Part shown: positions 10,489 to 24,999 of the stretch, one piece after another
How positions within the stretch are numbered: position 1 is the stretch's first letter
Layout: each line of letters starts with the position of its first letter
DNA from: Bacteroidales bacterium
GTDB lineage: Bacteria; Bacteroidota; Bacteroidia; Bacteroidales; VadinHA17
Direction: 5' to 3'
Assembly: GCA_029974835.1 (NCBI GenBank)
Contig: JARKQN010000078.1
Coordinates: 11,172-75,171 of the forward strand
DNA length: 64,000 nucleotides
The notes under the pieces: generated by a model
Database searches by the model: none
What the model was told of the DNA's origin: nothing
Seen by the model: only the letters and a program-made list of their open reading frames with translations
Made by a program: the position numbers and the translations under genes

Positions 10489-11292
10489 TCAGGGGAGATC
10501 ATTTTCCCCCTTCACATATCCGAAATTGGCCAGGATGCCGCCGTCGACGTACAGTATATGACCGTTTACGAAGTTGCTGGCTTTTGAAGCGAGGAAGAGT
10601 GCCGCATATGCCACATCTTCAGGTTCACCCCACCGGCCTGCCGGGGTGCGGGTCATAACAAGGTCGTTAAACGGATGATTTCCCTCCCTGATAGGTGCAG
10701 TCTGGGCAGTGGCAATGTATCCGGGTCCGATGCCGTTAACCTGGATATTGTATTTTGCCCATTCGCACGTCATGGTTCGGGTCAGAAGTTTCAGCCCTCC
10801 TTTTGCGGATGCATATGCCGCAACGGTATTTCTTCCGTAAACGCTCATCATTGAGCACATGTTTATGATTTTTCCCGCACGTTTCCTTATCATATTAGGG
10901 ACGACCCGTTTCGTAACTATAAGCGGTCCCACGAGGTCCACGTCGAGCACAGTCCTGAAGTCAGACACGGCCATTTCAAGAATCGGTATTCTTTTTATTA
11001 TTCCGGCATTGTTAACAAGGATGTCCACCTCCCCCACATTCTGTTCTATTTCAGTGATACCTCTGTTTGTATCAGCCTCATTGGTTACATCAAACTGCAG
11101 GGTGTAGACTTCAAGTCCCTCTTTCTGAAATTCCCCTTTGCAGATTTCAAGTTTCTCCCTGCTAAGGTCATTTACGCAAACGTTTGCCCCAGCCCGGGCA
11201 AGCAGTATTCCTGTTGCCAGGCCTATCCCGTGAGTACCTCCGGTAACAAGGGCAACTTTTCCGGTAAGGTCGAATAAGTCCTTCATAATCAA
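10489..11292 (-). CDS. kduD: SDR oxidoreductase, KduD/gluconate-5-dehydrogenase type (2-dehydro-3-deoxy-D-gluconate 5-dehydrogenase)
   Basis: TGGTHGIG cofactor motif, NNAG, and the catalytic Y..AK (AAYASAKGG). Immediately downstream of kduI. Confidence 0.7.
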   Translation of the reverse strand: MIMKDLFDLTGKVALVTGGTHGIGLATGILLARAGANVCVNDLSREKLEICKGEFQKEGLEVYTLQFDVTNEADTNRGITEIEQNVGEVDILVNNAGIIKRIPILEMAVSDFRTVLDVDLVGPLIVTKRVVPNMIRKRAGKIINMCSMMSVYGRNTVAAYASAKGGLKLLTRTMTCEWAKYNIQVNGIGPGYIATAQTAPIREGNHPFNDLVMTRTPAGRWGEPEDVAYAALFLASKASNFVNGHILYVDGGILANFGYVKGENDLP

Positions 11293-11304: not shown

Positions 11305-12141
11305 TTACTTTAATGTATCAGGATATCTGACATCCATATCGCCGTAATCGAGATTTTCTCCTGCCATACCCCATATGAACGTATAGTTTGAAGTACCAGC
11401 AGCGCTGTGGATGCTCCAGGAAGGAGAAAGCACGGCCTGTTCATTTTTCATCCAGATATGCCGTGTTTCATCTGGATCACCCATAAAATGGCAAATTCCC
11501 TCTTTTTCGGGAACTTCAAAATAAAAATAAGCCTCCATTCTCCTTGCATGCGTATGAACAGGCATTGTGTTCCAGACGCTGCCGGGTTTAAGTTCCGTCA
11601 TTCCCATCTGAAGCTGACAGGTTTCAAGTACACTGTTTACAATCAGTTTATTCACAGTTCTGTGGTTCGACTGTTCTGGTGACCCAAGGACAACAACCTC
11701 GGCCTCCTTAACGGTTATCTTACGGCAGGGATGTTCGTGATGTGCAGGTGCCGAATTAATGTAAAGTCTGGCAGGATTTCCGGGAGTAACTGAACGAAAT
11801 TCAACGTTTTCGGTGCCTTTGCCAAGGTAAAGAGCTTCCTTATAATCAAGGGTAAAGACTCCCCTGCTGGTTGATATTTCGGCTTTACCTCCCGCGTTAA
11901 TTATTCCAAGCTCGCGCCTTGCAAGAAAATTCTCCGCCTTAAGTTCATTGAAAGGTTCAAGTTTGAGTGTTTTGCCGCCGGGCATTGCACCTCCGACAAT
12001 AAATCTGTCGTACATTGAATACACAAGAATTATTTCATCCTTTTCAAAGAGCCTTTCAATTAAAAATTCTTTTCTGATTTTTTCGGTGTCATAACACTTA
12101 AAATCACCAGGATGAACTGCATAGCGCATTTCTGTTTTCAT
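11305..12141 (-). CDS. kduI: 5-dehydro-4-deoxy-D-glucuronate isomerase
   Basis: 278 aa, the same length as E. coli KduI. The N-terminal segment IRKEFLIERLFEKDEIILVYSMYDRFIVGGAMP closely parallels the enzyme as I recall it. Confidence 0.9.
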   Translation of the reverse strand: MKTEMRYAVHPGDFKCYDTEKIRKEFLIERLFEKDEIILVYSMYDRFIVGGAMPGGKTLKLEPFNELKAENFLARRELGIINAGGKAEISTSRGVFTLDYKEALYLGKGTENVEFRSVTPGNPARLYINSAPAHHEHPCRKITVKEAEVVVLGSPEQSNHRTVNKLIVNSVLETCQLQMGMTELKPGSVWNTMPVHTHARRMEAYFYFEVPEKEGICHFMGDPDETRHIWMKNEQAVLSPSWSIHSAAGTSNYTFIWGMAGENLDYGDMDVRYPDTLK

Positions 12142-12208: not shown

Positions 12209-12239
12209 CGAAATATAGTATATTTTATATTTTCGTGTT

Positions 12240-12291: not shown

Positions 12292-13689
12292 ATGCCTGAT
12301 TTTATTCATCCCGATTTTCTGCTGACCAATAAAACAGCAAAAAGATTATATCACGAATATTCTGAGAACCTGCCGATTATCGATTTTCACTGCCATCTTT
12401 CGCCGCAGATGATAGCCTCCGACAGGCAGTTTGAGAATCTTGCTCAGATATGGCTTGAAGGAGATCATTATAAATGGCGTGCCATGAGGACTAACGGCAT
12501 TCCGGAGAAATATTGCACCGGAGATGCACCTCCGGAAGAGAAGTTCGGCAAGTGGGCGGAAACGGTCCCGTATACTGCCGGCAATCCACTGTACCACTGG
12601 ACGCATCTTGAGCTCGCAAGATATTTCGGGATATTTGATCTGCTTTCTCCCTCAACCGCACCAAAAATATATAGCGAAGCCAATGCAATGCTCAAGGGCA
12701 GGGACTTCACCACCAGGTCGCTCATTAAAAAAATGAACGTTGAACTGATATGCACCACCGACGACCCTGTCGACTCCCTCGAATTTCACAGACAGTTGAA
12801 GGCGGATTTTGATGTAAAAGTGCTGCCGACATGGAGACCTGACGCCGTGATTAAAATCGAGGACAATGCAAAATGGAGGGAGTACGTGGAAAAGCTGGGA
12901 GTGAGTGCAAACCTGAGCATAAAAAATTTCAGCGATCTTATAAGTGCCCTCGAAAAGAGGCACGGTTTCTTCCACGAAAACGGGTGCAGGCAGTCTGATC
13001 ACGGGCTGGACAGGTTTTATTATTCCGCATATGACAGTTCTGAAGTGGAGAATATAACCAGAAAAATGCTCGGCGGCAAACCACTAAACGAAGGAGATCC
13101 CGAGAAATTCAGATGTGCCGTTATGTATGAACTCTGCTGCATGAATCATCGAAGGGGCTGGACCCAGCAGTTTCACGTGGGGGCCATGAGAAACAATAAC
13201 CTGAGAATGTTCAGAATGCTCGGACCCGACACCGGTTTCGACTCCATTGCCCCGCCACAGGATGCACTGAAAATGTCACGCTTCCTGAGTATGCTTGATG
13301 AAAGGGACCAACTGGCAAAAACCATCCTTTATAATCTTAACCCCGCCGATAATGAGGTTATGATAACTATGGCCGGCAATTTCAACGACGGAACTGTCCC
13401 TGTAAAGGTTCAGTATGGGCCTGCCTGGTGGTTTCTCGATCAGAAAGCAGGTATGGAAAAACACCTCAGGGATTTATCGTCACTCGGACTCCTCCCAAGG
13501 TTCATCGGAATGGTGACAGACTCAAGAAGCTTTATGTCGTACCCGAGGCACGAATATTTCAGGCGCCTGGTATGTAATTACGTAGGCGAGGAAGTGGAAA
13601 AAGGACTGATGCCATCTGATGAAAGCCTGCTAAGGATGATCGTTGAAGGTATCAGTTACCGCAACGCAAAAGAGCAGCTCGGCTATTGA
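12292..13689 (+). CDS. uxaC: Glucuronate isomerase (uronate isomerase)
   Basis: The N-terminal segment DFLLTNKTAKRLYHEYSENLPIIDFHCHLSPQ matches the UxaC signature. 465 aa. Confidence 0.92.
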   Translation: MPDFIHPDFLLTNKTAKRLYHEYSENLPIIDFHCHLSPQMIASDRQFENLAQIWLEGDHYKWRAMRTNGIPEKYCTGDAPPEEKFGKWAETVPYTAGNPLYHWTHLELARYFGIFDLLSPSTAPKIYSEANAMLKGRDFTTRSLIKKMNVELICTTDDPVDSLEFHRQLKADFDVKVLPTWRPDAVIKIEDNAKWREYVEKLGVSANLSIKNFSDLISALEKRHGFFHENGCRQSDHGLDRFYYSAYDSSEVENITRKMLGGKPLNEGDPEKFRCAVMYELCCMNHRRGWTQQFHVGAMRNNNLRMFRMLGPDTGFDSIAPPQDALKMSRFLSMLDERDQLAKTILYNLNPADNEVMITMAGNFNDGTVPVKVQYGPAWWFLDQKAGMEKHLRDLSSLGLLPRFIGMVTDSRSFMSYPRHEYFRRLVCNYVGEEVEKGLMPSDESLLRMIVEGISYRNAKEQLGY

Positions 13690-13721
13690 AAAAAATGTTT
13701 TAAACCAAACCTAAAAAAAAT

Positions 13722-14558
13722 ATGCTGAATCTTAAAGATAAAGTCGCAGTTATTACAGGGGGAGCCGGCATAATATGCTCCAGCATGGCCAAAGCCCTTG
13801 CATCGCAGGGAGTAAAGACAGCCATTCTCGACCTTAATAAGGAGGCAGCAGAGAAAGTGGCTGCGGAAATAAAAAACGAATTCAATGTTGCGTCAATAGG
13901 AGTCTCTGCAAGCGTACTTGATAAAAACTCCCTCGAAGCAGCCAGGGAAAAGATAGTTTCCGCGCTGGGAACACCAGATATTCTTGTGAACGGTGCCGGA
14001 GGAAATTCACCTGCCGCAACAACAAAACTGGAATGGATACCGGAGTCAGGTGCCGGGAATCCGGAAGATACCTTTTTTGGCCTTAAGCTGGAAGGTTTTG
14101 ATAAGGTTTTCGACCTTAATTTCAAGGGAACTCTCCTGCCTACCATGGTTTTCGGTAAGGATATGATTAATAAGAAATCGGGCGTCATTATAAATATATC
14201 CTCCATGAACTCCTACCGCCCGCTTACAAAAATCCCTGCATACTCTGCATCCAAGGCTGCCATCAACAATTTCACACAATGGCTCGCCGTCCATTTCGCA
14301 AAAACAGGTGTAAGAGTGAATGCCATTGCTCCGGGTTTCCTGCTTACCAGCCAGAACCGCTTCCTGCTTATTGATGAAAACACGGGTGATCTTACCCCGA
14401 GAGGAAAAAAGATAATAAACGGAACCCCCATGGGCAGATACTGCATGCCTGAAGAACTTAACGGAACATTGTTGTTCCTCGCTTCGGAAATGTCATCCTT
14501 TATCACAGGTATTGTGATCCCTGTCGATGGAGGTTTCAGCGCATACAGCGGAGTATAG
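13722..14558 (+). CDS. SDR oxidoreductase, probable fructuronate/D-mannonate oxidoreductase (short-chain UxuB type)
   Basis: TGGAGIICS cofactor motif and catalytic YSASKAA. The function is inferred from its position directly after uxaC. Confidence 0.6.
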   Translation: MLNLKDKVAVITGGAGIICSSMAKALASQGVKTAILDLNKEAAEKVAAEIKNEFNVASIGVSASVLDKNSLEAAREKIVSALGTPDILVNGAGGNSPAATTKLEWIPESGAGNPEDTFFGLKLEGFDKVFDLNFKGTLLPTMVFGKDMINKKSGVIINISSMNSYRPLTKIPAYSASKAAINNFTQWLAVHFAKTGVRVNAIAPGFLLTSQNRFLLIDENTGDLTPRGKKIINGTPMGRYCMPEELNGTLLFLASEMSSFITGIVIPVDGGFSAYSGV

Positions 14559-14568
14559 TAACAAGGCG

Positions 14569-14600
14569 AAAGGAGAAAGGAGAAAGGAGAAAGGAGAAAG
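14569..14600. repeat. Heptanucleotide tandem repeat (AAAGGAG) x4 plus a partial copy
   Basis: Counted directly: aaaggag aaaggag aaaggag aaaggag aaag. It starts 11 nt after the SDR stop codon. Confidence 0.9.
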
Positions 14601-14689
14601 TTGAGTAAAACGAAACCCTGACCGGAGTGTCAGGGGAGAAAGTTGAGTAAAACGAAACCCTGACCGGAGTGTCAGGGGAGAAAGTTGAG
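14593..14689. repeat. 42-bp perfect tandem direct repeat x2 plus a 13-bp third copy. Each unit carries a CCCTGAC-N6-GTCAGGG hairpin.
   Basis: Units 14593-14634 and 14635-14676 are identical (ggagaaagttgagtaaaacgaaaccctgaccggagtgtcagg). 14677-14689 repeats the first 13 nt. Confidence 0.9.
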
Positions 14690-14815
14690 CCCCGCTTCGC
14701 GGGGTAAATTCAACAAAACTCCAGACACTACGGTCTGGACAGGCCTGACCGGATTGAAAATCCTGACCGAATTGAAAATCCTGACCGGAGTGTCAGGAGC
14801 GTCAGGAGTGTCAGG
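14690..14815. repeat. Cluster of short GC-stem hairpins and an 18-bp tandem repeat
   Basis: CCCCGC-ttc-GCGGGG (14690-14704). CCAGAC-N6-GTCTGG (14721-14738). cctgaccgRattgaaaat x2 (14744-14779). Three CCTGAC (14744, 14762, 14780) are followed by three GTCAGG (14792, 14801, 14810). Confidence 0.85.
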
Positions 14816-14863
14816 GGAGAAAGGAAATTAGGGTAACCGGATTAACAAATAAACTGTGAGGGA

Positions 14864-16135
14864 ATGATTTATTACGGAACTGGTTCTGAAAAGACGACTT
14901 TAACAGAAGAAGATCTTAGAAACGGGCTATATACGGCACTTGACAAGATCGGCAGAAAAAAGAAAGTACTGGTTGTTCCTCCCGACATTACCAGAATTCA
15001 TTCGCGTGCTGGCGAGATTACAAAGCTGGCCTATGACTATTACAAGAAAAACCTGACAGATATACTTCCTGCCCTGGGTACCCATGTCCCCATGACTGAT
15101 GATGAAACTGCAAAAATGTTTCCCGGGATACCCCTGAACCTTTTCAGGGTACACAACTGGAGAAATGAGGTGGTTACTCTCGGCATTATCGGGGAGGATT
15201 TCATCTCTGAAATCACCGAAGGAAAAATAAAATATCCGTGGCCGGCGCAGGTTAACAGACTAATTAAAAACGGAGGTCACGACCTTGTGCTTTCTGTAGG
15301 ACAGGTTGTGCCGCATGAAGTGACGGGAATGGCAAACTATACCAAAAACATTCTGGTCGGAACAGGCGGCTCCGAAGGCATTAATAAAAGTCATTATATA
15401 GGCGCAGTTTACGGGATGGAACGGCTTCTCGGCAAGGCAGATAACCCCGTAAGACAACTTCTCAATTTTGCCGCTTCAAAATACCTTAATGACATACCTG
15501 TTGTTTATGTCCTTACGGTCATCGGACGGGACGAATCGGGAAAACTTGTTACGCGTGGACTTTTTATCGGGGATACCAGCGAAGTTTTCATGCTGGCATC
15601 AGACCTGTCGCTTAAAGTGAATTTCACAGTCCTGGAAAAACCGATAAGGAAAGCAGTGGTATATCTCGACCCGGATGAATTTAAAAGCACATGGCTCGGC
15701 AACAAAAGCATTTACCGTACAAGGATGGCGATGGCAGATAACGGGGAGCTGATAGTCATAGCTCCAGGTCTGAAGGAGTTTGGAGAGGACAGGGAGATTG
15801 ACCGGCTTGTAAGGAAATACGGATACAGGGGAACACCCGCCACCCTGAAAGCTGTTGAGGAGAATGAAGAACTTCAGAAAAACCTTGGAGCCGCAGCCCA
15901 CCTGATTCACGGAAGTACCGAGGGAAGATTCTCGGTGACTCTCTGCCCGGGAAAACTTACAAAAAATGAAATCGAATCTGCAGGTTTTAAGTACGCGGAT
16001 ATCAATGAGATAACAAAAAGATACAATCCTGCTGAACTGAAAGACGGATTCAATACACTTCCGGGTGGCGAAGAAATATATTATATTTCGAACCCCGCTA
16101 CCGGATTATGGGCTTCGAAGGAGAGACTGAGATAA
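14864..16135 (+). CDS. LarA-family (nickel-pincer-nucleotide-dependent) 2-hydroxyacid racemase/epimerase homologue. Substrate unknown; possibly an aldonate epimerase.
   Basis: PPDITRIH resembles the LarA SDHTRP motif. His74 (GTHVP), His151, Lys161 and His177 have H-to-K +10 and K-to-H +16 spacing. This equals the spacing of L. plantarum LarA His174/Lys184/His200. Confidence 0.65.
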   Translation: MIYYGTGSEKTTLTEEDLRNGLYTALDKIGRKKKVLVVPPDITRIHSRAGEITKLAYDYYKKNLTDILPALGTHVPMTDDETAKMFPGIPLNLFRVHNWRNEVVTLGIIGEDFISEITEGKIKYPWPAQVNRLIKNGGHDLVLSVGQVVPHEVTGMANYTKNILVGTGGSEGINKSHYIGAVYGMERLLGKADNPVRQLLNFAASKYLNDIPVVYVLTVIGRDESGKLVTRGLFIGDTSEVFMLASDLSLKVNFTVLEKPIRKAVVYLDPDEFKSTWLGNKSIYRTRMAMADNGELIVIAPGLKEFGEDREIDRLVRKYGYRGTPATLKAVEENEELQKNLGAAAHLIHGSTEGRFSVTLCPGKLTKNEIESAGFKYADINEITKRYNPAELKDGFNTLPGGEEIYYISNPATGLWASKERLR

Positions 16136-16202
16136 ATACATTAATCGTAATGGTGAATAAACAATCTATACAAAAGCAATAATAAAAATATAACTACTGA
16201 TT

Positions 16203-17657
16203 ATGAAAGAATTATCCGATATCGGACTTATTGGCCTCGCCGTTATGGGCGAGAATCTTGTTCTAAACATGGAAAGTAAGGGATTCAGGGTCACTGTGTT
16301 CAACAGGACCATATCCAAAGTCGATGATTTCATCAACGGAAGGGCAAAAGGGAAAAATATCACCGGCGCCCATTCGATTGAAGAACTCATTTCATCACTT
16401 AAGCGCCCGAGAAAGATAATGATCATGGTTAAGGCCGGGAAAGCTGTTGATGAAATGATTGAAACGCTTCTTCCGCACCTCGAAAAAGGTGATATAATAA
16501 TCGACGGAGGCAATACCCATTTCCCCGATACCAACCGGAGAACAGCCTATGTTGAAAGCAAAGGCATGCTTTATATAGGCACAGGTGTCTCGGGCGGAGA
16601 AGAGGGCGCTCTTCTGGGCCCCTCCATTATGCCGGGAGGATCAAAAGCAGCATGGCCTGAGGTGAAACCCGTCTTCCAGGCAATAGCAGCCAAAGTTGAG
16701 GACGGAACCCCCTGCTGCGACTGGGTGGGCGAAAACGGTGCCGGCCATTTCGTTAAAATGGTCCATAACGGAATCGAATACGGAGATATGCAGCTTATTT
16801 GTGAAGCATATCAGATTATGCGCGACCTTCTTGGGATGAAACCCGATGAAATGCACCTCGTTTTCAGGGAATGGAATGAGGGCGAACTCAACAGCTACCT
16901 TATTGAAATTACAAGGGATATCCTTGCCTATAAAGACACTGACGGACAGCCTCTTGTAGATAAGATTCTCGACACTGCCGGACAGAAGGGAACCGGAAAA
17001 TGGACCGGTGTAACAGCTCTTGACCTGGGAATTCCTCTTACACTGATTGTGGAAGCCGTATTCGGAAGGTGCCTGTCGGCAATAAAGGACGAAAGGGTAA
17101 CAGCTTCAAAAATATTATCGGGACCAAAACCTGTGTCTCCCGACGACAGAGATATGTTCATCAGGGATCTGAAGGAAGCTCTGTACGCAAGCAAGATAGT
17201 ATCCTATGCCCAGGGTTATGCCCTGATGATGGAAGCGGGCAGGGAATACAAATGGGACCTTAATTACGGAGGCATTGCGCTTATGTGGAGAGGAGGATGT
17301 ATTATACGGTCGGCCTTCCTCGGAAAAATCAAAGAGGCCTTCGATAAAAACCCCGCTCTGAACAACCTCCTGCTCGATCCTTTCTTTAAGGAAAAAGTGC
17401 AAAAGGCACAGACAGGATGGAGAAATGTTGTTGCAACAGCTGTTAAAAACGGGATACCCGTGCCGGCCATGGCTTCGGCGCTAAATTATTACGACGGCTA
17501 CCGGTGCGAGAGACTGCCGGCAAACCTCCTGCAGGCGCAAAGAGATTACTTCGGTGCCCATACATACGAAAGAACCGACCGACCCAGAGGTGAGTTCTTC
17601 CATACCAACTGGACAGGCAGGGGTGGCACCACAGCTTCAACAACATACAACGTTTAA
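16203..17657 (+). CDS. gnd: 6-phosphogluconate dehydrogenase, decarboxylating
   Basis: N-terminal Rossmann segment [30 protein letters not shown]. Also [18 protein letters not shown] and [11 protein letters not shown] near the C-terminus. 484 aa. Confidence 0.92.
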
Positions 17658-17760: not shown

Positions 17761-19059
17761 ATGACTGAAGCAGTAAAAAAAATCGGGAACTACAGGTGGA
17801 CAATCTGTGCCCTTATCTTTTTTGCAACCACGATCAACTATCTCGACAGGCAGGTCATAGGCATTCTTAAACCACTGCTCGAGTCGGACCTTGACATCGG
17901 AGAAAAAGCATATTCACATATTGTGATGGCATTCCAGTTTTTCTATGCCTTCGGTATGGTTGTAACCGGCAGGCTTATAGACAAATGGGGAACAAAAATC
18001 GGATACGGTATTGCCGTTATCTTCTGGAGCCTGGCCGCAATGGGTCATGCCCTGGCAAAAGGGGCTCTCGGCTTCGGCTTCTGGAGATCATTACTCGGAC
18101 TGGGTGAATCGGCCAACTTTCCGGCTGCCAATAAAAGTATGGCAGAATGGTTCCCAAAGAAAGAAAGAGCCGTTGCTTTCGGTATTCTGAATTCAGGCAC
18201 CAACGTAGGCGCAATTGTTGCCCCACTTGCCGTTCCCGCCATAGTTGCTGTTTGGAGCTGGCAGGCTGCATTCATCCTCACCGGTGCAGTCGGCTTTATC
18301 TGGTTAATATTCTGGTTCATGATGTATGAAGTTCCGGCGAAAAAGAAGTCACTCTCAAAAGCTGAATACGATTACATACACTCCGACCCTGAAGAACAGA
18401 CTGCGTCAGAAGAACATGTACCGTGGCTGAAACTGCTGAAATACCGCCAGACGTGGCTCTTCTTTATCGGAAAGGGAATGACCGACCCGATCTGGTGGTT
18501 TTACCTCTTCTGGATACCCGGCTGGCTTGCAGATGTAAGGGGAACAGGTCTTAACATTAAATCATTCGGACTTCCGCTCGCGTTTATCTATACGGCCACA
18601 ACAGTCGGATCAATTTTCGGGGGATGGCTTTCTTCCTACATGATAAAAAAGGGAATGACACCCTTCCGCGCCCGCAGCATAACAATGCTTATTTTTGCCC
18701 TGCTTGTTACTCCCATTGCTTTTGCATCCTCTCCTTCCATAAGCACATGGGGAGCTGTATGTCTGATAGCCCTGGCAGCAGCTTCTCACCAGGCATGGTC
18801 AGCAAATATTTTTACAACCGTATCCGATTCATTCCCCAAAAAAGCGGTCAGCTCCGTCACCGGAATAGGTGGCATGGCCGGTGCTCTCGGAGGTCTGGGG
18901 GTTTCATACTTCGCCGGGTTTATACTTGATCTGTATAAGAAAGCAGGACACGTAGAAACCGGGTATGTGGTAATGTTCGCTATAGCAGCAAGCGCATATA
19001 TACTTGCATGGATTATCATGAATGTTTTTGCCCCGAAAAAGAAGGTAGTGGAAATCTGA
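17761..19059 (+). CDS. exuT: MFS transporter, hexuronate (ExuT-like, anion:cation symporter family)
   Basis: About 12 predicted transmembrane segments. The N-terminal segment YRWTICALIFFATTINYLDRQVIGILKP is typical of ACS-family hexuronate transporters. The operon context agrees. Confidence 0.7.
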   Translation: MTEAVKKIGNYRWTICALIFFATTINYLDRQVIGILKPLLESDLDIGEKAYSHIVMAFQFFYAFGMVVTGRLIDKWGTKIGYGIAVIFWSLAAMGHALAKGALGFGFWRSLLGLGESANFPAANKSMAEWFPKKERAVAFGILNSGTNVGAIVAPLAVPAIVAVWSWQAAFILTGAVGFIWLIFWFMMYEVPAKKKSLSKAEYDYIHSDPEEQTASEEHVPWLKLLKYRQTWLFFIGKGMTDPIWWFYLFWIPGWLADVRGTGLNIKSFGLPLAFIYTATTVGSIFGGWLSSYMIKKGMTPFRARSITMLIFALLVTPIAFASSPSISTWGAVCLIALAAASHQAWSANIFTTVSDSFPKKAVSSVTGIGGMAGALGGLGVSYFAGFILDLYKKAGHVETGYVVMFAIAASAYILAWIIMNVFAPKKKVVEI

Positions 19060-19075: not shown

Positions 19076-20140
19076 ATGTTCAGCAGAAAGGCACGACTTA
19101 AAGATATTGCTGCTCATACCGGAGTATCTATAGGCACCGTCGACAGGGTTCTTCACGACAGAGGACAGGTAGCGGAGAAAACAAGAGAAAAAGTACTTAA
19201 GGCAGCAAAGGAATTAAATTATTCTCCCAACATCATCGCAAGAGCACTTAAAACAAGGAAAGGCTTTAATATTGTCTCATTGCTGCCATTCCCAACCGCG
19301 GAAAACCCCTTCTGGGAAAAACACCCGGAGGGAATGGAAAAAGCGATGCTCGAACTCGATCAGTTCCCGGTCTTACTAAGGCAATATACATTTGACCTGA
19401 ATAATGAAAAAAGTTTCCAGAAAAAAGCCGCGGAAGTTATGAGGCAAAATTTCGACGGAATAGTGCTTGCGCCGGTATTTAAGAATGAATCCATCACCTT
19501 CTGTTCCCTCCTGAGAAAGAAAAAAATTCCTTTTGTATTTGTCGACAACTTCCTTACAGAGACCAATTTCCTGGCATACATAGGGGAAAATATCTTCAGC
19601 AGCGGAAGGGTGGCCGGACAACTGGCCGACCTTGTTACTCCCGTTAACAAAGACATTCTTGTTATAAACATCGCAAAAAACCTTCGCAACATGCACCACC
19701 TTAACAAAAGGACTGACGGATTCATCAGCTACCTTTCCGACAAAAGCTACCGGAAAAGGAAAACACTAAGGCTTAATATTCCCGGCACCGACAAACAGGT
19801 GGTCAAAAAGTCACTCGAAAAAGTATTTCTGAAGTACCCTGATATTGCAACAATCTTCGTTACAGGGTCAAAGTCATATAAGATTGCAGAAAACGTTAAC
19901 GGTATTGGTGAAAATGGCGTGAATATTATTGGCTACGACCTTCTCGACAACAATGTCGAATGCCTGAAGGAGGGGAAAATAAGATTTCTTATCGGCCAGC
20001 GGCCAGAGGAGCAGACATACAGGGCAATAAAGAAGCTTTTTGAGTATCTTTCCCTGAAAAAAATGCCCGACAAACTCGACTATCTTCCCGTCGATATCGT
20101 AACAAGCGAAAACGTTGATTTCTTTATAAACAGCCGCTGA
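19076..20140 (+). CDS. LacI-family transcriptional regulator
   Basis: N-terminal HTH segment RLKDIAAHTGVSIGTVDRVLHDRGQVAEKTREKVLKAAKELNYSPN, followed by a periplasmic-binding-like sugar domain. Confidence 0.85.
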   Translation: MFSRKARLKDIAAHTGVSIGTVDRVLHDRGQVAEKTREKVLKAAKELNYSPNIIARALKTRKGFNIVSLLPFPTAENPFWEKHPEGMEKAMLELDQFPVLLRQYTFDLNNEKSFQKKAAEVMRQNFDGIVLAPVFKNESITFCSLLRKKKIPFVFVDNFLTETNFLAYIGENIFSSGRVAGQLADLVTPVNKDILVINIAKNLRNMHHLNKRTDGFISYLSDKSYRKRKTLRLNIPGTDKQVVKKSLEKVFLKYPDIATIFVTGSKSYKIAENVNGIGENGVNIIGYDLLDNNVECLKEGKIRFLIGQRPEEQTYRAIKKLFEYLSLKKMPDKLDYLPVDIVTSENVDFFINSR

Positions 20141-20158: not shown

Positions 20159-21412
20159 ATGAAAAAACTGGGAAAATATTCCATGGGCCTGGGTGACAGG
20201 TTTGGCCGTCAGGCCCCTGCTCAGCTTAAGGCAGTTATTGATGCGGGGAAAAAAGGCATTGAAATAACTCCCGTCTGGAATAAATCAAACAGGGAACACC
20301 TGATTATCGGAACAGCTCCCGGTGACGTAAGGGCAGAGGCGGATGCTGCAGTAAAGGCATTAAAATTCAGAAAGCCATATTTTGTCGACGCCGACCACAT
20401 TAATTTTGATACGGTGGGAAGATTTACAGATGCTTCCGATTTTTTCACTATCGACGTGGCTGCCTACATCGGGCAGAAGGCCGGCGATGAAGACATAAAG
20501 GCTTTCGTAAAGAAGGCAGAAAAACTAAAAGGTAAACTCAGGATACAGGGAATCCCCAAACCTTTTAATATTACCTCATTATACCTGAAAAAAGTAGCAG
20601 AGAAATACCTGTTTGCCACCAAGATGGCAGGAGTGATTTACCGCCGGATAGAAAACCTGAAGGGGAAAGGGAATTTCGTGACTGAAATTTCTATGGACGA
20701 AGTTCCTGAACCTCAGACTCCTTCCGAGCTTTATTTCATTCTGTTCATGCTCGCAATCGAAAAAATCCCGGTTCAGACAATAGCACCCAAATTCCAGGGC
20801 AGATTCAATAAGGGTGTTGATTATGTCGGGAAACCGGAACTGTTTGCCCTTGAATTTGAATCTGATCTGCTGGTTATCAAACAGGCTGTTAAGAAGTTCA
20901 ATCTGCCCGAAAACCTGAAAATAAGTGTCCACTCGGGATCTGATAAATTTGCCCTCTATCCTCATATCGGAAGGATTATCAGAAAACATGATGCAGGTAT
21001 CCATCTGAAAACTGCAGGTACCACCTGGCTTGAAGAGGTTACCGGGCTGGCAATGGCAGGAGGCGAATCGCTGGCGTTTGTAAAGGAGATATACAAAAAT
21101 GCATTCGAGAAAGCTGATGAACTATGTGCTCCCTATGCAGATGTCATTGACATTAAGAAGGAACGGCTCCCCTCTCCTTCCACGGTAATGAAATGGAACA
21201 GCAGGGAGTTTTCATCGGCAATTTCTCACAACAGCGATTGTCGCGATTATAATCCCGACATGCGACAGTTGATCCATGTCGGGTACAAGCTTGCTGCATT
21301 AAGGATGGATGAGTATCTGGCTCTGATCGACAGGAACAGGGACATAGTCGCAAAATGCGTCTATGAAAATATATATGACAGACACATCTGCAGGATATTC
21401 GGTATAAAATAA
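20159..21412 (+). CDS. uxaE: Tagaturonate/fructuronate epimerase (UxaE-like)
   Basis: The N-terminal segment YSMGLGDRFGRQAPAQL...PYFVDADHINFDT resembles the UxaE family as I recall it from Thermotoga. The hexuronate operon context agrees. Confidence 0.55.
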   Translation: MKKLGKYSMGLGDRFGRQAPAQLKAVIDAGKKGIEITPVWNKSNREHLIIGTAPGDVRAEADAAVKALKFRKPYFVDADHINFDTVGRFTDASDFFTIDVAAYIGQKAGDEDIKAFVKKAEKLKGKLRIQGIPKPFNITSLYLKKVAEKYLFATKMAGVIYRRIENLKGKGNFVTEISMDEVPEPQTPSELYFILFMLAIEKIPVQTIAPKFQGRFNKGVDYVGKPELFALEFESDLLVIKQAVKKFNLPENLKISVHSGSDKFALYPHIGRIIRKHDAGIHLKTAGTTWLEEVTGLAMAGGESLAFVKEIYKNAFEKADELCAPYADVIDIKKERLPSPSTVMKWNSREFSSAISHNSDCRDYNPDMRQLIHVGYKLAALRMDEYLALIDRNRDIVAKCVYENIYDRHICRIFGIK

Positions 21413-21423: not shown

Positions 21424-23811
21424 TTACTTCAATACCCTGAGGGTACTGTCCAGTAAGACCGGCTCTCCCTTTTTCAGTTTCAGACTGGTTTTCAGGCTGC
21501 CCGACCTGACAATTATATTAATATTTTCGGCCGCCTCCAGTTTTGCACGGGTTAGTCTGTTGTTATCCCATGATATTTCAACCGAAATATTACCCCTTGC
21601 CTTTAATCCGGAAACAGTGCCATTTTTCCATGCTGCAGGCAATGCCGGCAGCAGAACAATCTCCCCTGAATGCGATTGCAGCAGCATTTCGGCAATCCCT
21701 GCAGTAAGGCCAAAATTACCGTCAATCTGAAACGGCGGATGAGTGTCGAACAGGTTGTTCAATGTTTTCTCTCTTTGCAGTTCAAGTATTTTGTTCCATG
21801 CAGCATCGCCGTCGTTGAGCCTGGCCAGGAAGTTCACCATCCATGCCTTGCTCCATCCTGTTGATGAACCCTGTCCCTTAACGGCGTAAGTCTGCCGGCG
21901 TTCAATGGTCTTTTTTGCGGCTTCAAACAATTCAGGCTGAGCAGGTGTTATCTGAGTTCCCGGGTGTAGCCCGAAAAGCTGCGACATGTGCCTGTGACCC
22001 GGTTCATTCTCTTCGTAATCTTCGATCCATTCCTGCACTATTCCATAACGTTTGCTCACCCTGTTAGGAGGAAGATTCCTTAGTACATTTTTCATCTGTG
22101 AGATGAATTGTTTGTTTCCGCCAAGTAACTCCCCTGCTCTCACACAGGCATTCAGTAACTCTCTTATTATCTGGATATCCATCGTAGCACCGTAGGTCAG
22201 ATTAAATTTTCCGCCGTCAGGAAGACGGTAAGTGTTTTCAGGGGAGTTTGAAGGTGCAGTCACCAGATAACCATTCTTATCCTTTATAAGGAAGCCAATA
22301 ACAAATTCCGCACTCTCCTTCATTGAAGGCCATGCCTCGTTTCTCAGATACTCCATGTCTTGAGTAAACAGAAAATGTTCCCACTGGTGAAGTACCAGCC
22401 ATGGTCCGGCCATGGGGAAAGTACCCCACCCTACACCATCGGAAATTGAAGTCCGGCCAAAAGGATCAGTGAGATGGTTCACCGTCCAGCCGGTTGAGTT
22501 GAAGGTTTTCTGTGCAGTCACCCGGCCGGGTTCCCTTAACCTGTTTATCAGGTCGGAAAGAGGAATTACCGTTTCGGGAAGGTTACAGACTTCGGCGGGC
22601 CAGTAATTCATCTGGATATTTATATTGGTATGAAAATCGGAGTTCCATGCGGCGGAATAGTCCTGATTCCAGATTCCCTGGAGGTTTGCCGGGAGTATGC
22701 CGGGTTTTCGCGACGACCCCATCAGGAGGTAACGCCCGTACTGGAACTGAAGCACGGCCAGCCCGGGGTCTTCTGCTCCTTCCCTTACGAGTTTCAGACG
22801 CTGGTCGGTGGGCAGGTCCCTCATTCTATCCTCCCCGAGCGAAAACTTCACCCTGTCAAAAAGTTCAGAGTGATCAGCAATATGTTTCTGTATAACTTCC
22901 TCATATGTCTTATATCTGACGGGTTCAAGGATCCGGGCACATATCGCGGCGGGATCAATATTCCTGTCAAAATTCAGAAGGGAAGGATTATAATCGGTAG
23001 CAGCTGTCAGGTAAAACAGGGCTTCGGAGGCGTTCTCCGCGAACAGGCTGTTATTGACACTCCTCAGCGATCCGTCTTTGACTCTTCCCCATAATCTTGC
23101 AGCAAACTTCATGTGAAGCCCGGGCGGGCATACATCTTTGTCGGGCAGGTCAACTATCTGGCCGGTCATCAGAAGCTCATCCTCCGATGCCGGTACAACA
23201 ACCGCATCCTGCTCCCTTGAAAGTGATATTTTGAAGGTCAGTCTGCCGGGCTGAGAACAGGTTAATCTGATAACAATAACATTATCGGGTGCAGAGGCAA
23301 AAACTTCCCTGGTAAAAGTTATTCCTTCCCATGACCAGGAGGTTGTTGAAATGCCGTTACCGAGGTTCAGTTCGCGGCGATAGTTTTCTCTTTCAGGCAG
23401 AGAGCGGTTCTGACCGAACATATCGATATAAATGTCGCCCAGAGGCTGGTATGAACGGATGCGCATAGGATTGCTCCGCAAATGTTTTTCAGACAATTCC
23501 ATAGCCTCCTTAATCTCTCCGTTCAGAAGTTTCTGCTGGATGGCCGGAAGATATCCGCGTGCATCGGCATCGGCATTTTCCACTCTCATACCGGCCCATA
23601 TGCTTTCTTCGTTAAGCTGGATCCGTTCACGCATGATATCCCCGAACACCATTGCACCAAGGCGTCCGTTGCCAACCGGTAATGCCTCGTTCCAGTCAGC
23701 CGCCGGCTGTTTATACCAGAGGATCAGACTTTGATTACCGGCAGGCTGACCCGGTAAGTTCAGGGCAAAGAATAATCCCGGGAAATACAGAAATATCTTT
23801 ACAAACCTCAT
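21424..23811 (-). CDS. Glycoside hydrolase family 95 (alpha-L-fucosidase/alpha-L-galactosidase)
   Basis: Signal peptide. The N-terminal segment LWYKQPAADWNEALPVGNGRLGAMVFG and the catalytic-region segment NLQGIWNQDYSAAWNSDFHTNINIQMNYWPAEVCNL are both typical of GH95. Confidence 0.88.
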   Translation of the reverse strand: MRFVKIFLYFPGLFFALNLPGQPAGNQSLILWYKQPAADWNEALPVGNGRLGAMVFGDIMRERIQLNEESIWAGMRVENADADARGYLPAIQQKLLNGEIKEAMELSEKHLRSNPMRIRSYQPLGDIYIDMFGQNRSLPERENYRRELNLGNGISTTSWSWEGITFTREVFASAPDNVIVIRLTCSQPGRLTFKISLSREQDAVVVPASEDELLMTGQIVDLPDKDVCPPGLHMKFAARLWGRVKDGSLRSVNNSLFAENASEALFYLTAATDYNPSLLNFDRNIDPAAICARILEPVRYKTYEEVIQKHIADHSELFDRVKFSLGEDRMRDLPTDQRLKLVREGAEDPGLAVLQFQYGRYLLMGSSRKPGILPANLQGIWNQDYSAAWNSDFHTNINIQMNYWPAEVCNLPETVIPLSDLINRLREPGRVTAQKTFNSTGWTVNHLTDPFGRTSISDGVGWGTFPMAGPWLVLHQWEHFLFTQDMEYLRNEAWPSMKESAEFVIGFLIKDKNGYLVTAPSNSPENTYRLPDGGKFNLTYGATMDIQIIRELLNACVRAGELLGGNKQFISQMKNVLRNLPPNRVSKRYGIVQEWIEDYEENEPGHRHMSQLFGLHPGTQITPAQPELFEAAKKTIERRQTYAVKGQGSSTGWSKAWMVNFLARLNDGDAAWNKILELQREKTLNNLFDTHPPFQIDGNFGLTAGIAEMLLQSHSGEIVLLPALPAAWKNGTVSGLKARGNISVEISWDNNRLTRAKLEAAENINIIVRSGSLKTSLKLKKGEPVLLDSTLRVLK

Positions 23812-23817
23812 AATACG

Positions 23818-24999
23818 TTATTTGTCAAGTTCCAGGGCTGCAAGTATAAACGGGGCAACACCCTTTGTATCGTTATCGAATCTCTTCTCATTAATATAAT
23901 ACTCATACGATCCGTCCCTGTAGGGTGTACCTCCAAGTCCGCAGCCGCCGCAGATATTGTGTATTGTAACCATTCCTTTTTCATCGGTTGTAATGAATTC
24001 CTTTATGAAATCGTCAAAAGCATCTTCGGCAATTTTCCTGAATTTATTGTCAATATATCCGAGCCGGGCGCTTTTTGCAAAAACATAAATATACATTGCC
24101 GAACCGGAGGCTTCAAGGTAATTGCCTTCCCTGCCGCCCATATTCAGGACCTGATACCATAATCCTGATTTCGTGTCGCGTACTTTCAGAAGAGCCTCAC
24201 AGGTATTCTGAAGTATGGTTATAAGGTCTTTGCGGCCGGGATGGTCAGGGGGCAGGTAATCGAGAATATCGGTGATGGCCATAATGTACCAGCCCATTGC
24301 CCTGCTCCACGGGTACTTAGACTGTCCGGTTTCGGGTTCGCACCATTTCTGGGTACGGCTCTCATCCCAGGCGTGTCTGAGCAGACCTGTCTCCCTGTCG
24401 AGGGTTTTTTCATAGATCATTTTTGTCTGGTTTACCGCCTCATCGTACCATACGGGAACATTGAACTCTTTTGCATATTGCACCATAAAGGTTGATCCCA
24501 TAAAGATCCCGTCGAGCCACATCTGCCAGGGATATATCTTTTTATGCCAGTACCCGCCTGAATTTGTCCTGGGGTGTGTTTTGAGCTGTTCTATAAAATT
24601 GTCAAGCGCTATCTTATATTCAGGAAGGGGATTTCTCCTGTACAGGGTCATAATGTTTCTGCCAGGCAGAATTCTGTCAAGGTTGTACTCATCTGATTTA
24701 TAGTCAATCACAGACCCGTCGCTCCTGACAAAGTAATTGACCCAATCCTCCATGTACCGGGAATATTTCCGGTCGGTGCTTCCCAGTTTATCGATAGCCA
24801 TCCCCAGGAATGACACGTCGTAAGCCCATTTGGGTTTACCGCTTACATAATGGATCAGGCTGTCGGCCTGCGTCATGACAGTATTGGCCATTCTGACAGA
24901 CCATTTCATGGCGTTGTTCTGTCCTGAAGTCTTCTGCCCGCATTCATATAATGAAAGTATGGCAATAAGGGCTGCTGCAAGAATTGATTGTCTGCTCAT
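23818..24999 (-). CDS. Glycoside hydrolase family 105 (unsaturated rhamnogalacturonyl hydrolase, YteR/YesR-like)
   Basis: Signal peptide. Carries the motifs GGYWHKKIYPWQMWLDGIFMG and WSRAMGWYIMAITDILDYLPPDHPGR. Confidence 0.85.
   Translation of the reverse strand: MSRQSILAAALIAILSLYECGQKTSGQNNAMKWSVRMANTVMTQADSLIHYVSGKPKWAYDVSFLGMAIDKLGSTDRKYSRYMEDWVNYFVRSDGSVIDYKSDEYNLDRILPGRNIMTLYRRNPLPEYKIALDNFIEQLKTHPRTNSGGYWHKKIYPWQMWLDGIFMGSTFMVQYAKEFNVPVWYDEAVNQTKMIYEKTLDRETGLLRHAWDESRTQKWCEPETGQSKYPWSRAMGWYIMAITDILDYLPPDHPGRKDLITILQNTCEALLKVRDTKSGLWYQVLNMGGREGNYLEASGSAMYIYVFAKSARLGYIDNKFRKIAEDAFDDFIKEFITTDEKGMVTIHNICGGCGLGGTPYRDGSYEYYINEKRFDNDTKGVAPFILAALELDK

What the first reader, a model, noticed from the sequence alone, without database searches (positions are those of the whole stretch)
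14864..16135. LarA-family enzyme with a complete nickel-pincer site inside a hexuronate operon, next to gnd
- **Conserved site:** The 423-aa protein keeps the residues that define lactate racemase LarA. In L. plantarum numbering, recalled from the literature, these are catalytic His108 and His174, Lys184 tethering the nickel-pincer nucleotide, and His200 ligating Ni.
- **Counterparts here:** His74 (GTHVP), His151, Lys161 and His177, with the identical +10 and +16 spacing, plus a DxTR motif (PPDITR).
- **Context:** It sits between a mannonate/fructuronate-type SDR and 6-phosphogluconate dehydrogenase.
- **Precedent:** Published biochemical surveys of LarA homologues report other 2-hydroxyacid racemases/epimerases, including a D-gluconate 2-epimerase.
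- **Hypothesis:** This is a mannonate-gluconate (or altronate/other aldonate) C2 epimerase. It would divert hexuronate carbon to gluconate, then 6-phosphogluconate, then ribulose-5-P. That bypasses the dehydratase/KDG route.
- **Missing partners:** No larB/larC/larE cofactor-synthesis genes and no gluconate kinase are in this window.
Basis: partly seen in the sequence, partly recalled or inferred. Interest (0 to 1): 0.65.

Follow-up and report, generated by a model that had tools for sequence, protein, structure and literature searches.

The report
Nickel-pincer hexonate epimerase in uronate operon
This gene encodes a nickel-cofactor enzyme of an already catalogued family that most likely flips one carbon of mannonate to make gluconate, letting a gut or digester-type Bacteroidales bacterium send sugar acids from pectin-like polymers into the pentose-phosphate pathway; the idea is sound but already published and curated.

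Summary
ORF 14864-16135 (+) encodes a 423-aa LarA-superfamily protein. It keeps every catalytic and cofactor-binding residue: D41, R44, H74, H151, K161, H177, K281. It sits in a uxaC / mannonate-SDR / LarAH / gnd / MFS / lacI / uxaE cluster.

- The protein scores 646 bits (cutoff 500) on NCBIfam NF052594, "nickel-dependent putative hexonate epimerase". This is LarAH group 18 of Desguin et al. 2020, who tabulated the same neighbour gene families.
- Its nearest solved structure is 4NAR, the proven Thermotoga D-gluconate 2-epimerase GntE2.
- A Phytophthora enzyme shown in 2024 to be a narrow gluconate/mannonate epimerase very probably belongs to group 18.

- Natural gluconokinase-LarAH18 fusions occur in the same uxaC-SDR context.
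- A dedicated non-KdgK PfkB kinase lies next to the gene in many genomes, and gnd lies within 10 kb in 54 of 80 loci.
- A larB-larC-larE-nikR cluster abuts the gene in a Saccharicrinis isolate.

Two points remain open: whether the substrate is mannonate or 6-phosphomannonate, and whether this genome carries larBCE.

The parts
14864..16135 (+). LarA homologue of group 18 (NPN-dependent putative hexonate 2-epimerase), 423 aa. Key codons: D41 14984-14986, R44 14993-14995, H74 15083-15085, H151 15314-15316, K161 15344-15346, H177 15392-15394, K281 15704-15706.
   Evidence: ORF. NF052594 645.9 bits against cutoff 500. Pfam Lar_N. 4NAR E = 1.7e-39. Residue homology. Model pLDDT 94.9 and Foldseek 4NAR TM 0.83.
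13722..14558 (+). SDR-type D-mannonate oxidoreductase (fructuronate reductase), the step that makes D-mannonate.
   Evidence: NF006132 398.6 bits against cutoff 281. An SDR-family gene lies within 10 kb of the LarAH in 58 of 80 related loci and directly precedes it, or its kinase, in many; the cluster also holds KduD-type SDRs.
12292..13689 (+). Glucuronate/galacturonate isomerase UxaC.
   Evidence: Pfam UxaC 666.6 bits; NF002794 619 bits. Present in 34 of 80 loci.
14559..14863 (.). Repeat-rich, hairpin-rich 305-nt spacer between the SDR and the LarAH gene. It may separate two transcription units.
   Evidence: Tandem units of 7, 42 and 18 nt. CCTGACCGGAGTGTCAGG hairpins occur only here in the window. 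The middle is rearranged in another sample of the same organism. No Rfam match.
16203..17657 (+). NADP-dependent decarboxylating 6-phosphogluconate dehydrogenase Gnd, the proposed sink of the pathway.
   Evidence: TIGR00873 785.6 bits against cutoff 426.7. Within 10 kb of the LarAH in 54 of 80 loci.
17761..19059 (+). MFS sugar-acid transporter (D-galactonate/hexuronate type).
   Evidence: Pfam MFS_1 183.5 bits; TIGR00893 subfamily 220 bits, below its cutoff. Present in 25 of 80 loci.
19076..20140 (+). LacI-family regulator of the cluster.
   Evidence: Pfam LacI plus Peripla_BP_4. Present in 34 of 80 loci, usually at the head of the operon.
20159..21412 (+). UxaE-like tagaturonate 3-epimerase. 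It would bring galacturonate-derived tagaturonate to fructuronate.
   Evidence: Pfam UxaE 165 bits against cutoff 27.1. Present in 37 of 80 loci.
11305..12141 (-). KduI (5-dehydro-4-deoxy-D-glucuronate isomerase), part of the divergent unsaturated-uronate branch.
   Evidence: NF002091 412.7 bits against cutoff 250.
10489..11292 (-). KduD-type SDR, matching the NCBIfam 'gluconate 5-dehydrogenase' model NF005488. It is the partner of KduI.
   Evidence: NF005488 416.6 bits against cutoff 369.
21424..24999 (-). GH95 and GH88 (unsaturated glucuronyl hydrolase) glycosidases that would supply uronates.
   Evidence: Pfam Glyco_hydro_95_cat 545 bits; Glyco_hydro_88 308.5 bits.

Best explanation
**What it is.** The gene encodes a nickel-pincer-nucleotide (NPN) dependent C2 epimerase of LarA-homologue group 18. 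It most likely interconverts D-mannonate and D-gluconate.

**Pathway (inferred from gene content).**
1. GH88, GH95 and other enzymes release uronates.
2. UxaC isomerises glucuronate to fructuronate and galacturonate to tagaturonate.
3. The UxaE-like enzyme epimerises tagaturonate to fructuronate.
4. The SDR reduces fructuronate to D-mannonate.
5. The LarA homologue inverts C2 to give D-gluconate.
6. A kinase encoded elsewhere in this genome makes 6-phosphogluconate.
7. The adjacent Gnd oxidatively decarboxylates it to ribulose-5-phosphate. This returns the NAD(P)H spent by the reductase.

**Chemistry (by homology to LarA and GntE2, not shown here).**
- The NPN cofactor is tethered to K161, and its nickel is ligated by H177.
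- H74 or H151 takes the C2-hydroxyl proton while the C2 hydride moves to C4 of the pyridinium ring. This gives bound 2-keto-gluconate.
- The hydride returns to the opposite face, and the other histidine reprotonates.

**Shown here:** the fold, all catalytic and cofactor residues, family membership, the substrate-signature residues and the gene linkage.

**Inferred:** the identity of the substrate, the use of NPN, and the pathway flux.
For: **Family placement**
- NF052594 'nickel-dependent putative hexonate epimerase' scores 645.9 bits against a cutoff of 500, whereas the lactate racemase model scores 20 against 460.
- The protein is 58-63% identical to published group-18 sequences, 28% to GntE1 and GntE2, and 17% to LarA. 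It clusters with group 18.
- All seven catalytic and NPN residues are conserved, and the GntE-type signature E152-V153, W277, AAAH is present (PMC7583248, PMC11770544).
- The best structural match is GntE2 (4NAR) at TM 0.83.

**Biochemical precedent**
- GntE1, GntE2 and Phytophthora LarAH15 epimerise D-mannonate to D-gluconate in vitro.
- LarAH15's primer-encoded N-terminus equals the start of the LarA domain of the group-18 P. infestans entry.

**Gene context**
- In 80 species-level loci the neighbours are SDR 58, gnd 54, PfkB kinase 47, uxaE 37 and uxaC 34.
- Four divergent GntK-LarAH18 fusion clusters exist. One lies in a uxaC-SDR-fusion order in two independent assemblies.
- uxuA shares the operon in six loci, which places the enzyme at the mannonate node.
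- The published context table for group 18 lists the same partner families.

**Cofactor supply**
- larB, larC, larE and nikR abut the gene in Saccharicrinis.
- LarC is common in Bacteroidota families that carry this enzyme.
Against: - No activity was measured for this protein or for any bacterial group-18 member. NCBIfam still calls the family 'putative'.
- The window holds no kinase and no larBCE, so both the next step and cofactor supply are assumed to be encoded elsewhere.
- In L. suebicus the proven order is mannonate kinase, then 6-phosphomannonate 2-epimerase, and the genes are unidentified. The gene linkage seen here fits that order equally well.
- The KM values of characterised GntEs for mannonate are high, 9-120 mM. 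That leaves room for a different native substrate.
- Group 18 differs from groups 19 and 20 at signature positions: L278/N280 against T/G or T/A, a final S against R, and an extra conserved R287.
Confidence: 0.7

Rival explanations
1. The enzyme is a 6-phospho-D-mannonate 2-epimerase. A kinase first phosphorylates mannonate, and the LarA homologue then converts 6-phosphomannonate directly into 6-phosphogluconate for the adjacent Gnd. In relatives the kinase would be the LarAH-adjacent PfkB or the fused GntK-type domain.
For: - L. suebicus extracts show exactly this order, and the genes are unidentified. No later paper in the library identifies them.
- A dedicated PfkB kinase lies immediately upstream of the LarAH in many loci. 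It is only 25-31% identical to the KdgK in the same genome.
- PdxB, which acts on a phosphorylated 2-hydroxy acid, sits between the LarAH and gnd in 34 of 80 loci.
- Group 18 has a conserved R287 that GntE1 and GntE2 lack.
- Characterised GntEs have high KM values for free mannonate.
Against: - GntE1, GntE2 and the probable group-18 member LarAH15 all work on unphosphorylated mannonate. LarAH15 has kcat 111 per second and a narrow spectrum.
- The fused kinase domain matches the gluconokinase model TIGR01313 above its cutoff. On present knowledge that points to gluconate as the kinase substrate.
- Only one extra basic residue distinguishes group 18, and the final signature position loses an Arg relative to groups 19 and 20.
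- No phosphorylated substrate is known for any LarA homologue.
Confidence: 0.17
2. The enzyme epimerises a different sugar acid from uronate metabolism, for example D-altronate/D-allonate, L-gulonate/L-idonate, or an aldarate such as glucarate/mannarate.
For: - Desguin et al. only claim 'a hexonate' for group 18, and they raise uronic or aldaric acids for group 19.
- Group 18 differs from groups 19 and 20 at several specificity positions.
- A Gfo/Idh/MocA oxidoreductase follows the gene in 24 loci, and its role is unknown.
Against: - The upstream SDR matches the mannonate oxidoreductase model.
- UxaE funnels tagaturonate into fructuronate, and there is no uxaB or uxaA here, so mannonate is the aldonate the cluster makes.
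- The strong link to gnd and to gluconokinase fusions requires gluconate or 6-phosphogluconate as the product.
Confidence: 0.08
3. The protein is a lactate racemase or another small 2-hydroxy-acid racemase that happens to lie in a sugar-acid cluster, or it is a non-functional apoprotein because the genome lacks NPN synthesis.
For: - Public sources name the protein 'lactate racemase domain-containing protein' or 'nickel-dependent lactate racemase'.
- No larBCE genes are in the window, and only 1 of 80 related loci has them within 10 kb.
Against: - The lactate racemase model scores 20 bits against a cutoff of 460.
- The hydrophobic F175/F176/W358 lactate pocket is replaced by E152/V153 and small residues.
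- High conservation across at least 597 species genomes and a fixed operon position argue for a working enzyme.
- larBCE are usually unlinked to LarA homologues; the group-18 context table lists none, while group 19 lists them in a third of cases.
- LarC is widespread in Bacteroidota.
Confidence: 0.04

Closest known systems
LarAH group 18 of Desguin et al. 2020 ('G2E3', putative hexonate epimerase) = NCBIfam NF052594 NPN_18_hexonate
   Same: - The full-length match is far above the curated cutoff.
- It has the same 20-residue signature, D R H H E V K H. W L N K G A A L I H S.
- It is 58-63% identical to the published members from Tannerella, Melioribacter and Acidobacterium.
- It has the same tabulated neighbour families: SDR, 6-phosphogluconate dehydrogenase, MFS, glucuronate isomerase and KduI.
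   Different: Nothing of substance. This copy lacks the ribokinase-family kinase that many members have beside them.
GntE2 / LarAH20 of Thermotoga maritima (TM0442, PDB 4NAR), D-gluconate 2-epimerase
   Same: - Same fold, TM 0.83.
- Same catalytic and NPN residues and the E-x loop after the catalytic His.
- Same pathway logic: UxaE, a fructuronate reductase, the epimerase and Gnd. This was proposed by Rodionova 2012 as cited in PMC7583248 and PMC6978723.
   Different: - Only 28% identical.
- Different signature residues: S156, T284, G286 and a final R, against V153, L278, N280 and S.
- It is from a thermophile.
- Its cluster includes a gluconate kinase, according to the cited papers.
LarAH15 of Phytophthora nicotianae (JBC 2024), a narrow-spectrum D-gluconate/D-mannonate 2-epimerase
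   Same: It is probably in the same group 18. The P. infestans orthologue is listed in group 18, and the cloning primer encodes the same N-terminus. The paper gives E, V, A, H as the usual GntE signature and says LarAH15's catalytic pocket resembles those of known GntEs.
   Different: It is eukaryotic. Its full sequence could not be retrieved here, so identity to the window protein is unknown; diatom group-18 members are 52% identical.
Lactate racemase LarA of L. plantarum (PDB 5HUQ)
   Same: Same fold (TM about 0.7), same catalytic His pair, Lys tether, His nickel ligand and D/R/K triad, and the same presumed proton-coupled hydride-transfer mechanism (PMC11770544).
   Different: 17% identical. 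The substrate pocket residues are replaced, and it fails the LarA equivalog model at 20 bits against 460.
Mannonate kinase / 6-phosphomannonate 2-epimerase route of Lactobacillus suebicus (Valk et al. 2020)
   Same: Same overall conversion of uronate-derived mannonate to 6-phosphogluconate and then to ribulose-5-phosphate, with redox balance.
   Different: The order of steps is kinase first, and the genes are unknown. No link to the LarA family has been shown.

Membership tests
LarA superfamily (NPN-dependent 2-hydroxy-acid racemases/epimerases) | Lar_N domain and the two-domain LarA fold | tested here: met
   Pfam PF09861 36.3 bits against cutoff 23.3. The AF2 model has pLDDT 94.9, and the top 19 Foldseek PDB hits are all LarA-family, TM 0.53-0.83.
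LarA superfamily (NPN-dependent 2-hydroxy-acid racemases/epimerases) | Two catalytic histidines (LarA H108, H174) | tested here: met
   H74 and H151 fall in the same alignment columns. They are conserved in 42 and 45 of 46 representatives.
LarA superfamily (NPN-dependent 2-hydroxy-acid racemases/epimerases) | Cofactor-tethering Lys184 and nickel-ligating His200 | tested here: met
   K161 and H177, with the same +10 and +16 spacing. They align with GntE2 K164 and H180 (PMC7583248).
LarA superfamily (NPN-dependent 2-hydroxy-acid racemases/epimerases) | D72, R75 and K298 equivalents | tested here: met
   D41, R44 and K281.
LarA superfamily (NPN-dependent 2-hydroxy-acid racemases/epimerases) | Bound nickel-pincer nucleotide and nickel-dependent activity | not testable with these tools
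   This needs purified protein.
LarA superfamily (NPN-dependent 2-hydroxy-acid racemases/epimerases) | larB, larC and larE present in the same genome | tested here: inconclusive
   They are absent from the 64-kb window, and the rest of the genome is not available. They lie next to the orthologue in Saccharicrinis sp. FJH62. LarC is common in Bacteroidota.
LarAH group 18 / NCBIfam NF052594 (putative hexonate epimerase) | Equivalog HMM score above the curated cutoff over the full length | tested here: met
   645.9 bits against 500; residues 10-417 match model positions 2-410 of 411.
LarAH group 18 / NCBIfam NF052594 (putative hexonate epimerase) | Published signature residues (E-V loop; W-L-x-N-K in helix 11; G/S-A-A..L-I-H..S in helix 14) | tested here: met
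   E152, V153, W277, L278, N280, K281, G342, A344, A345, L347, I348, H349, S351, compared with the supplement of PMC7583248.
LarAH group 18 / NCBIfam NF052594 (putative hexonate epimerase) | Gene neighbourhood of SDR, 6-phosphogluconate dehydrogenase and uronate genes | tested here: met
   Window genes, 80 loci and the published table.
D-gluconate 2-epimerase (GntE; characterised groups 19 and 20, LarAH15) | Interconversion of D-mannonate and D-gluconate | not testable with these tools
   Only inferred, from homology, the signature and gene context.
D-gluconate 2-epimerase (GntE; characterised groups 19 and 20, LarAH15) | GntE residues E, V, A, H at LarA positions F175, F176, W358, T359 (PMC11770544) | tested here: met
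   E152 and V153 are certain. The helix-14 stretch reads AAAH (A343-H346) when anchored on GntE2. Direct alignment of this helix to LarA is unreliable.
D-gluconate 2-epimerase (GntE; characterised groups 19 and 20, LarAH15) | Gluconate kinase encoded alongside | tested here: not met
   There is no kinase in the window cluster. Relatives have a fused GntK domain or an adjacent PfkB kinase.
Lactate racemase LarA sensu stricto (NF033504) | Equivalog HMM cutoff and the hydrophobic F-F / W pocket | tested here: not met
   20.1 bits against cutoff 460. F175/F176 are replaced by E152/V153.

The most novel reading that the evidence does not exclude
Group-18 LarA homologues are the missing 6-phosphomannonate 2-epimerases. 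The PfkB kinase that sits immediately upstream of them in many genomes would then be the missing mannonate 6-kinase. It is distinct from KdgK. That would make this the first nickel-pincer enzyme acting on a phosphorylated sugar acid. It would also supply candidate genes for the pathway shown biochemically in Lactobacillus suebicus in 2020.
Probability: 0.15. Interest if true: 0.55.

Novelty: already known. Interest (0 to 1): 0.25.

Why it matters
- **Physiology.** The route turns uronic acids from pectin, hemicellulose and host glycans into ribulose-5-phosphate without net use of reducing equivalents. That is useful for anaerobic fermenters.
- **Distribution.** The gene family is very common. 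At least 597 species-level genomes carry it, and the metagenome protein search reached its ceiling of 8,000 scored candidates, all significant.
- **Annotation.** Public sources name many members 'lactate racemase', which hides a nickel-dependent step in carbohydrate use by Bacteroidales and other polysaccharide degraders.
- **Limits.** Nothing here changes current understanding, because the prediction is published and now curated in NCBIfam.
- **What is worth carrying forward.** The linkage evidence found here could guide the one experiment still missing for bacterial members. That evidence is the gluconokinase fusions, the dedicated PfkB kinase paralogue, and PdxB and Gfo-type genes inside the operon.

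Tried and rejected
- **RNA element in the 305-nt gap.** An Rfam scan of 10000-26500 found only a tRNA and sub-threshold noise, with no riboswitch upstream of the gene. The gap is a repeat mosaic instead.
- **Plain sequence search against solved structures.** It finds 4NAR but not LarA itself. Homology to LarA needed a family alignment and a fold search.
- **Stand-alone GntK-type kinases.** BLAST with the fused kinase domains found none in the 80 loci.
- **larBCE in the window's own organism.** Motif scans found them only in L054. A LarC homology search returned Marinilabiliales-type proteins that cannot be tied to this MAG.
- **Pocket geometry.** Model coordinates are not exposed, so I compared conserved basic residues instead. 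Only R287 is specific to group 18.
- **PfkB tree.** Midpoint rooting did not split the two kinase classes cleanly. Classification by identity to same-genome paralogue pairs did.
- **Antisense ORF.** The 103-aa ORF at 15599-15910 (-) lies wholly inside the LarAH gene. I treated it as a shadow ORF without testing it.
Full report
**1. The observation**

An ATG-to-stop ORF of 423 aa lies at 14864-16135 on the + strand. An identical protein is deposited from a Bacteroidales MAG and was read on 22 metagenome contigs with the same neighbours.

The set was L. plantarum LarA, GntE1, GntE2, two published group-18 sequences and 46 diverse representatives. The reference sequences came from the supplement of PMC7583248.

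| LarA (L. plantarum) | D72 | R75 | H108 | H174 | K184 | H200 | K298 |
|---|---|---|---|---|---|---|---|
| Window protein | D41 | R44 | H74 | H151 | K161 | H177 | K281 |

- The same columns hold the residues published for GntE2: R41, K164, H180, E155/S156 and G286.
- The +10 and +16 spacing is exact.
- A model built from a 20-sequence alignment is confident (pLDDT 94.9, pTM 0.90).
- Its best PDB match is 4NAR (TM 0.83). The next 18 matches are all LarA-family structures.

**2. What family it is**

- Pfam sees only the general Lar_N domain.
- NCBIfam is specific. NF052594, 'NPN_18_hexonate, nickel-dependent putative hexonate epimerase', is an equivalog model. It matches over the full length at 645.9 bits against a cutoff of 500.
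- The lactate racemase model scores 20 bits against 460, and the malate racemase models score 26-37 against 462-500.
- '18' refers to LarAH group 18 of Desguin et al. 2020. [quoted passage not shown]
- Their dataset labels the group 'G2E3' and gives it a 20-residue signature. The window protein has that signature: E152-V153 after the catalytic His, W277-L278-x-N280-K281, and G342/A344/A345/L347/I348/H349/S351.

| Compared with | Identity to the window protein |
|---|---|
| Melioribacter roseus (group 18) | 63% |
| Acidobacterium capsulatum (group 18) | 59% |
| Tannerella forsythia (group 18) | 58% |
| Diatom member (group 18) | 52% |
| GntE1 and GntE2 | 28% |
| LarA | 17% |

**3. What is known about the nearest relatives**

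- 4NAR, the only PDB entry reached by plain sequence search (E = 1.7e-39), is GntE2 of Thermotoga maritima.
- GntE2 and GntE1 of Corynebacterium glutamicum convert D-mannonate to D-gluconate with added NPN.
- Rodionova et al. 2012 predicted the role of GntE2, as cited in PMC7583248 and PMC6978723. It lets uronate-derived mannonate enter the pentose-phosphate pathway through gluconate kinase and Gnd. I could not read that paper itself.
- A 2024 study added LarAH15 of Phytophthora nicotianae, a narrow-spectrum gluconate/mannonate epimerase with KM 9.4 mM and kcat 111 per s.
- The 2020 dataset places the P. infestans homologue PITG_09435 in group 18.
- The LarAH15 forward primer encodes MATLLFAE. 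PITG_09435 reads MTLLFAEG exactly where its LarA domain begins.

So a group-18 enzyme has very probably been characterised already. I could not retrieve the full sequence to prove it.

**4. The locus**

On the + strand:
- uxaC (12292-13689).
- An SDR matching 'D-mannonate oxidoreductase' (13722-14558).
- A 305-nt spacer.
- The LarA homologue.
- gnd (16203-17657).
- An MFS sugar-acid transporter.
- A LacI regulator.
- A UxaE-like tagaturonate epimerase (20159-21412).

Divergent upstream are kduI and a kduD-type SDR. Convergent downstream are GH95 and GH88.

The rest of the window is housekeeping and signalling genes. No larB, larC, larE, gluconate or other sugar-acid kinase, uxuA or eda is present (same calls, plus the motif scan).

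**5. Gene linkage elsewhere**

They include Bacteroidales families, Ignavibacteria, Verrucomicrobiota, Planctomycetota, Acidobacteriota and others. I clustered the ORFs of the best 80 loci and named the clusters.

| Neighbour | Loci (of 80) |
|---|---|
| SDR | 58 |
| gnd | 54 |
| PfkB-family kinase | 47 |
| uxaE | 37 |
| uxaC | 34 |
| lacI | 34 |
| pdxB | 34 |
| MFS | 25 |
| Gfo/Idh/MocA oxidoreductase | 24 |
| eda | 12 |
| kduI | 11 |
| uxuA | 6 |

- The recurring core is lacI > SDR > PfkB > LarAH > [GFO] > [pdxB] > gnd.
- The window has the arrangement seen in Rikenellaceae-type genomes, the nearest at 77% identity. That arrangement is uxaC > SDR > LarAH > [GFO] > gnd > MFS > [lacI] > uxaE, usually without the kinase.
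- These neighbour families, apart from pdxB and the Gfo-type gene, are already in the published context table for group 18: SDR 36%, 6-phosphogluconate dehydrogenase 32%, ribokinase-family kinase 16%, and MFS, UxaC and KduI at 12% each.

**6. Points I did not find stated in the papers I read**

- **Kinase fusions.** Four mutually divergent clusters fuse an N-terminal GntK/IdnK-type gluconokinase domain to a group-18 LarA homologue. The kinase domain scores 124-180 bits on TIGR01313 against a cutoff of 113.75. One fusion lies in a uxaC > SDR > fusion order in two independent assemblies. That is the window's gene order with the kinase attached.
- **A dedicated kinase paralogue.** Nine loci carry two PfkB kinases. 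One lies next to eda and/or uxaC, the KdgK position. The other is immediately upstream of the LarA homologue. The two are 25-31% identical to each other, against 59% and 67% within each class. The LarAH-linked kinase is therefore a separate paralogue. Its nearest solved structures are KDG kinases.
- **Cofactor genes beside the enzyme.** In Saccharicrinis sp. FJH62 the LarAH-gnd pair abuts a TonB-dependent receptor, NikR, a membrane protein, LarB, LarC and LarE. NikR, LarB, LarC and LarE all score above their curated cutoffs. This is the only one of the 80 loci with larBCE within 10 kb. It shows that Bacteroidota carriers of this enzyme can make the cofactor. LarC is common in Prolixibacteraceae, Draconibacterium and related families that also carry the enzyme.

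**7. Mechanism and its rivals**

The best-supported reading is NPN-dependent C2 epimerisation of D-mannonate to D-gluconate. Phosphorylation by a kinase encoded elsewhere would follow, and then Gnd.

- The upstream SDR and UxaE make mannonate the aldonate this cluster produces.
- uxuA shares the operon in six loci, so the enzyme sits at the mannonate node.
- The fused kinase matches the gluconokinase model.

The serious rival comes from L. suebicus. There, extracts phosphorylate mannonate first and then epimerise 6-phosphomannonate, and the genes are unknown. No later paper in the library identifies them. Gene linkage cannot tell the two orders apart.

- For the rival: pdxB in the operon and a group-specific conserved R287 lean slightly towards a phosphorylated substrate.
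- Against it: the in-vitro activity of GntE1, GntE2 and LarAH15 on free mannonate leans the other way.

My estimates are 0.70 for the free acid, 0.17 for the phosphate, 0.08 for another sugar acid, and 0.04 for a lactate-type or inactive protein.

**8. Verdict**

That hypothesis is already encoded in an NCBI naming model and is probably already backed by an assay on a eukaryotic member.
- I rate it 'already known', with interest 0.25.
- Residual value lies in two things. One is correcting the 'lactate racemase' names these proteins carry in public sources. The other is using the kinase linkage found here to settle the substrate question.

Noticed in passing
window 14559-14863: The spacer between the SDR and the LarAH gene is a mosaic of short repeats. 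It holds (AAGGAGA) x5.4, a 42-nt unit x2.3 at 100% match, an 18-nt unit x2.6, and several GC-rich hairpins. The motif CCTGACCGGAGTGTCAGG occurs three times here and nowhere else in the window. In another sample of the same organism (L001) the flanks are identical, but the middle is rearranged and 39 nt longer. No Rfam family matches. It may be a terminator or attenuator, or a small mobile repeat.
   Followed up: partly
L054 12819-18599 (Saccharicrinis sp. FJH62): A TonB-dependent receptor, NikR, a 244-aa membrane protein, LarB, LarC and LarE lie convergent to the LarAH18-gnd pair. This looks like a nickel-uptake and NPN-maturation island beside the enzyme. Only 1 of 80 loci shows it.
   Followed up: partly
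L055 11357-12487, L013 11265-12275 and 30+ other loci: A PdxB-family 4-phosphoerythronate dehydrogenase sits between the LarAH and gnd in 34 of 80 loci; its representative scores 457 bits on NF001309 against a cutoff of 434. It is often preceded by a Gfo/Idh/MocA oxidoreductase (24 loci). From my own knowledge, a PfkB kinase plus a D-2-hydroxy-acid dehydrogenase recalls the KguK/KguD 2-ketogluconate route. These genes might handle a 2-keto or phosphorylated intermediate. The window lacks both.
   Followed up: no
L043, L055, L057, L064, L070, L078, L066, L017, L049: There are two PfkB kinases per locus. One lies with eda and/or uxaC (KdgK-type). The other, immediately upstream of the LarAH, is 25-31% identical to it. 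It is a candidate hexonate (gluconate or mannonate) 6-kinase that none of the NCBIfam equivalog models matched above cutoff.
   Followed up: partly
P0149 (823 aa, metagenome representative): A group-18 LarA homologue (531 bits on NF052594) is fused to a C-terminal N-acylglucosamine 2-epimerase / cellobiose 2-epimerase-like domain. That places two different epimerase types in one protein.
   Followed up: no
window 61466-63879 (-): A histidine kinase carries an N-terminal [FeFe]-hydrogenase-like domain (Fe_hyd_lg_C plus 4Fe-4S motifs). It is followed upstream by a second hydrogenase-like fragment and by response-regulator genes. This may be a redox- or H2-sensing signalling module.
   Followed up: no
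window 329-7737 (-): A run of three DUF4402 proteins, an Fn3-like protein and a 1593-aa glycine-rich (Gly_rich_2) protein. It may be a surface or fimbria-like cluster.
   Followed up: no
window 25124-25198 (-): A tRNA gene (Rfam 69 bits) lies between GH88 and a Fibrobacter-type (Fib_succ_major) lipoprotein gene. It marks the end of the carbohydrate cluster.
   Followed up: no
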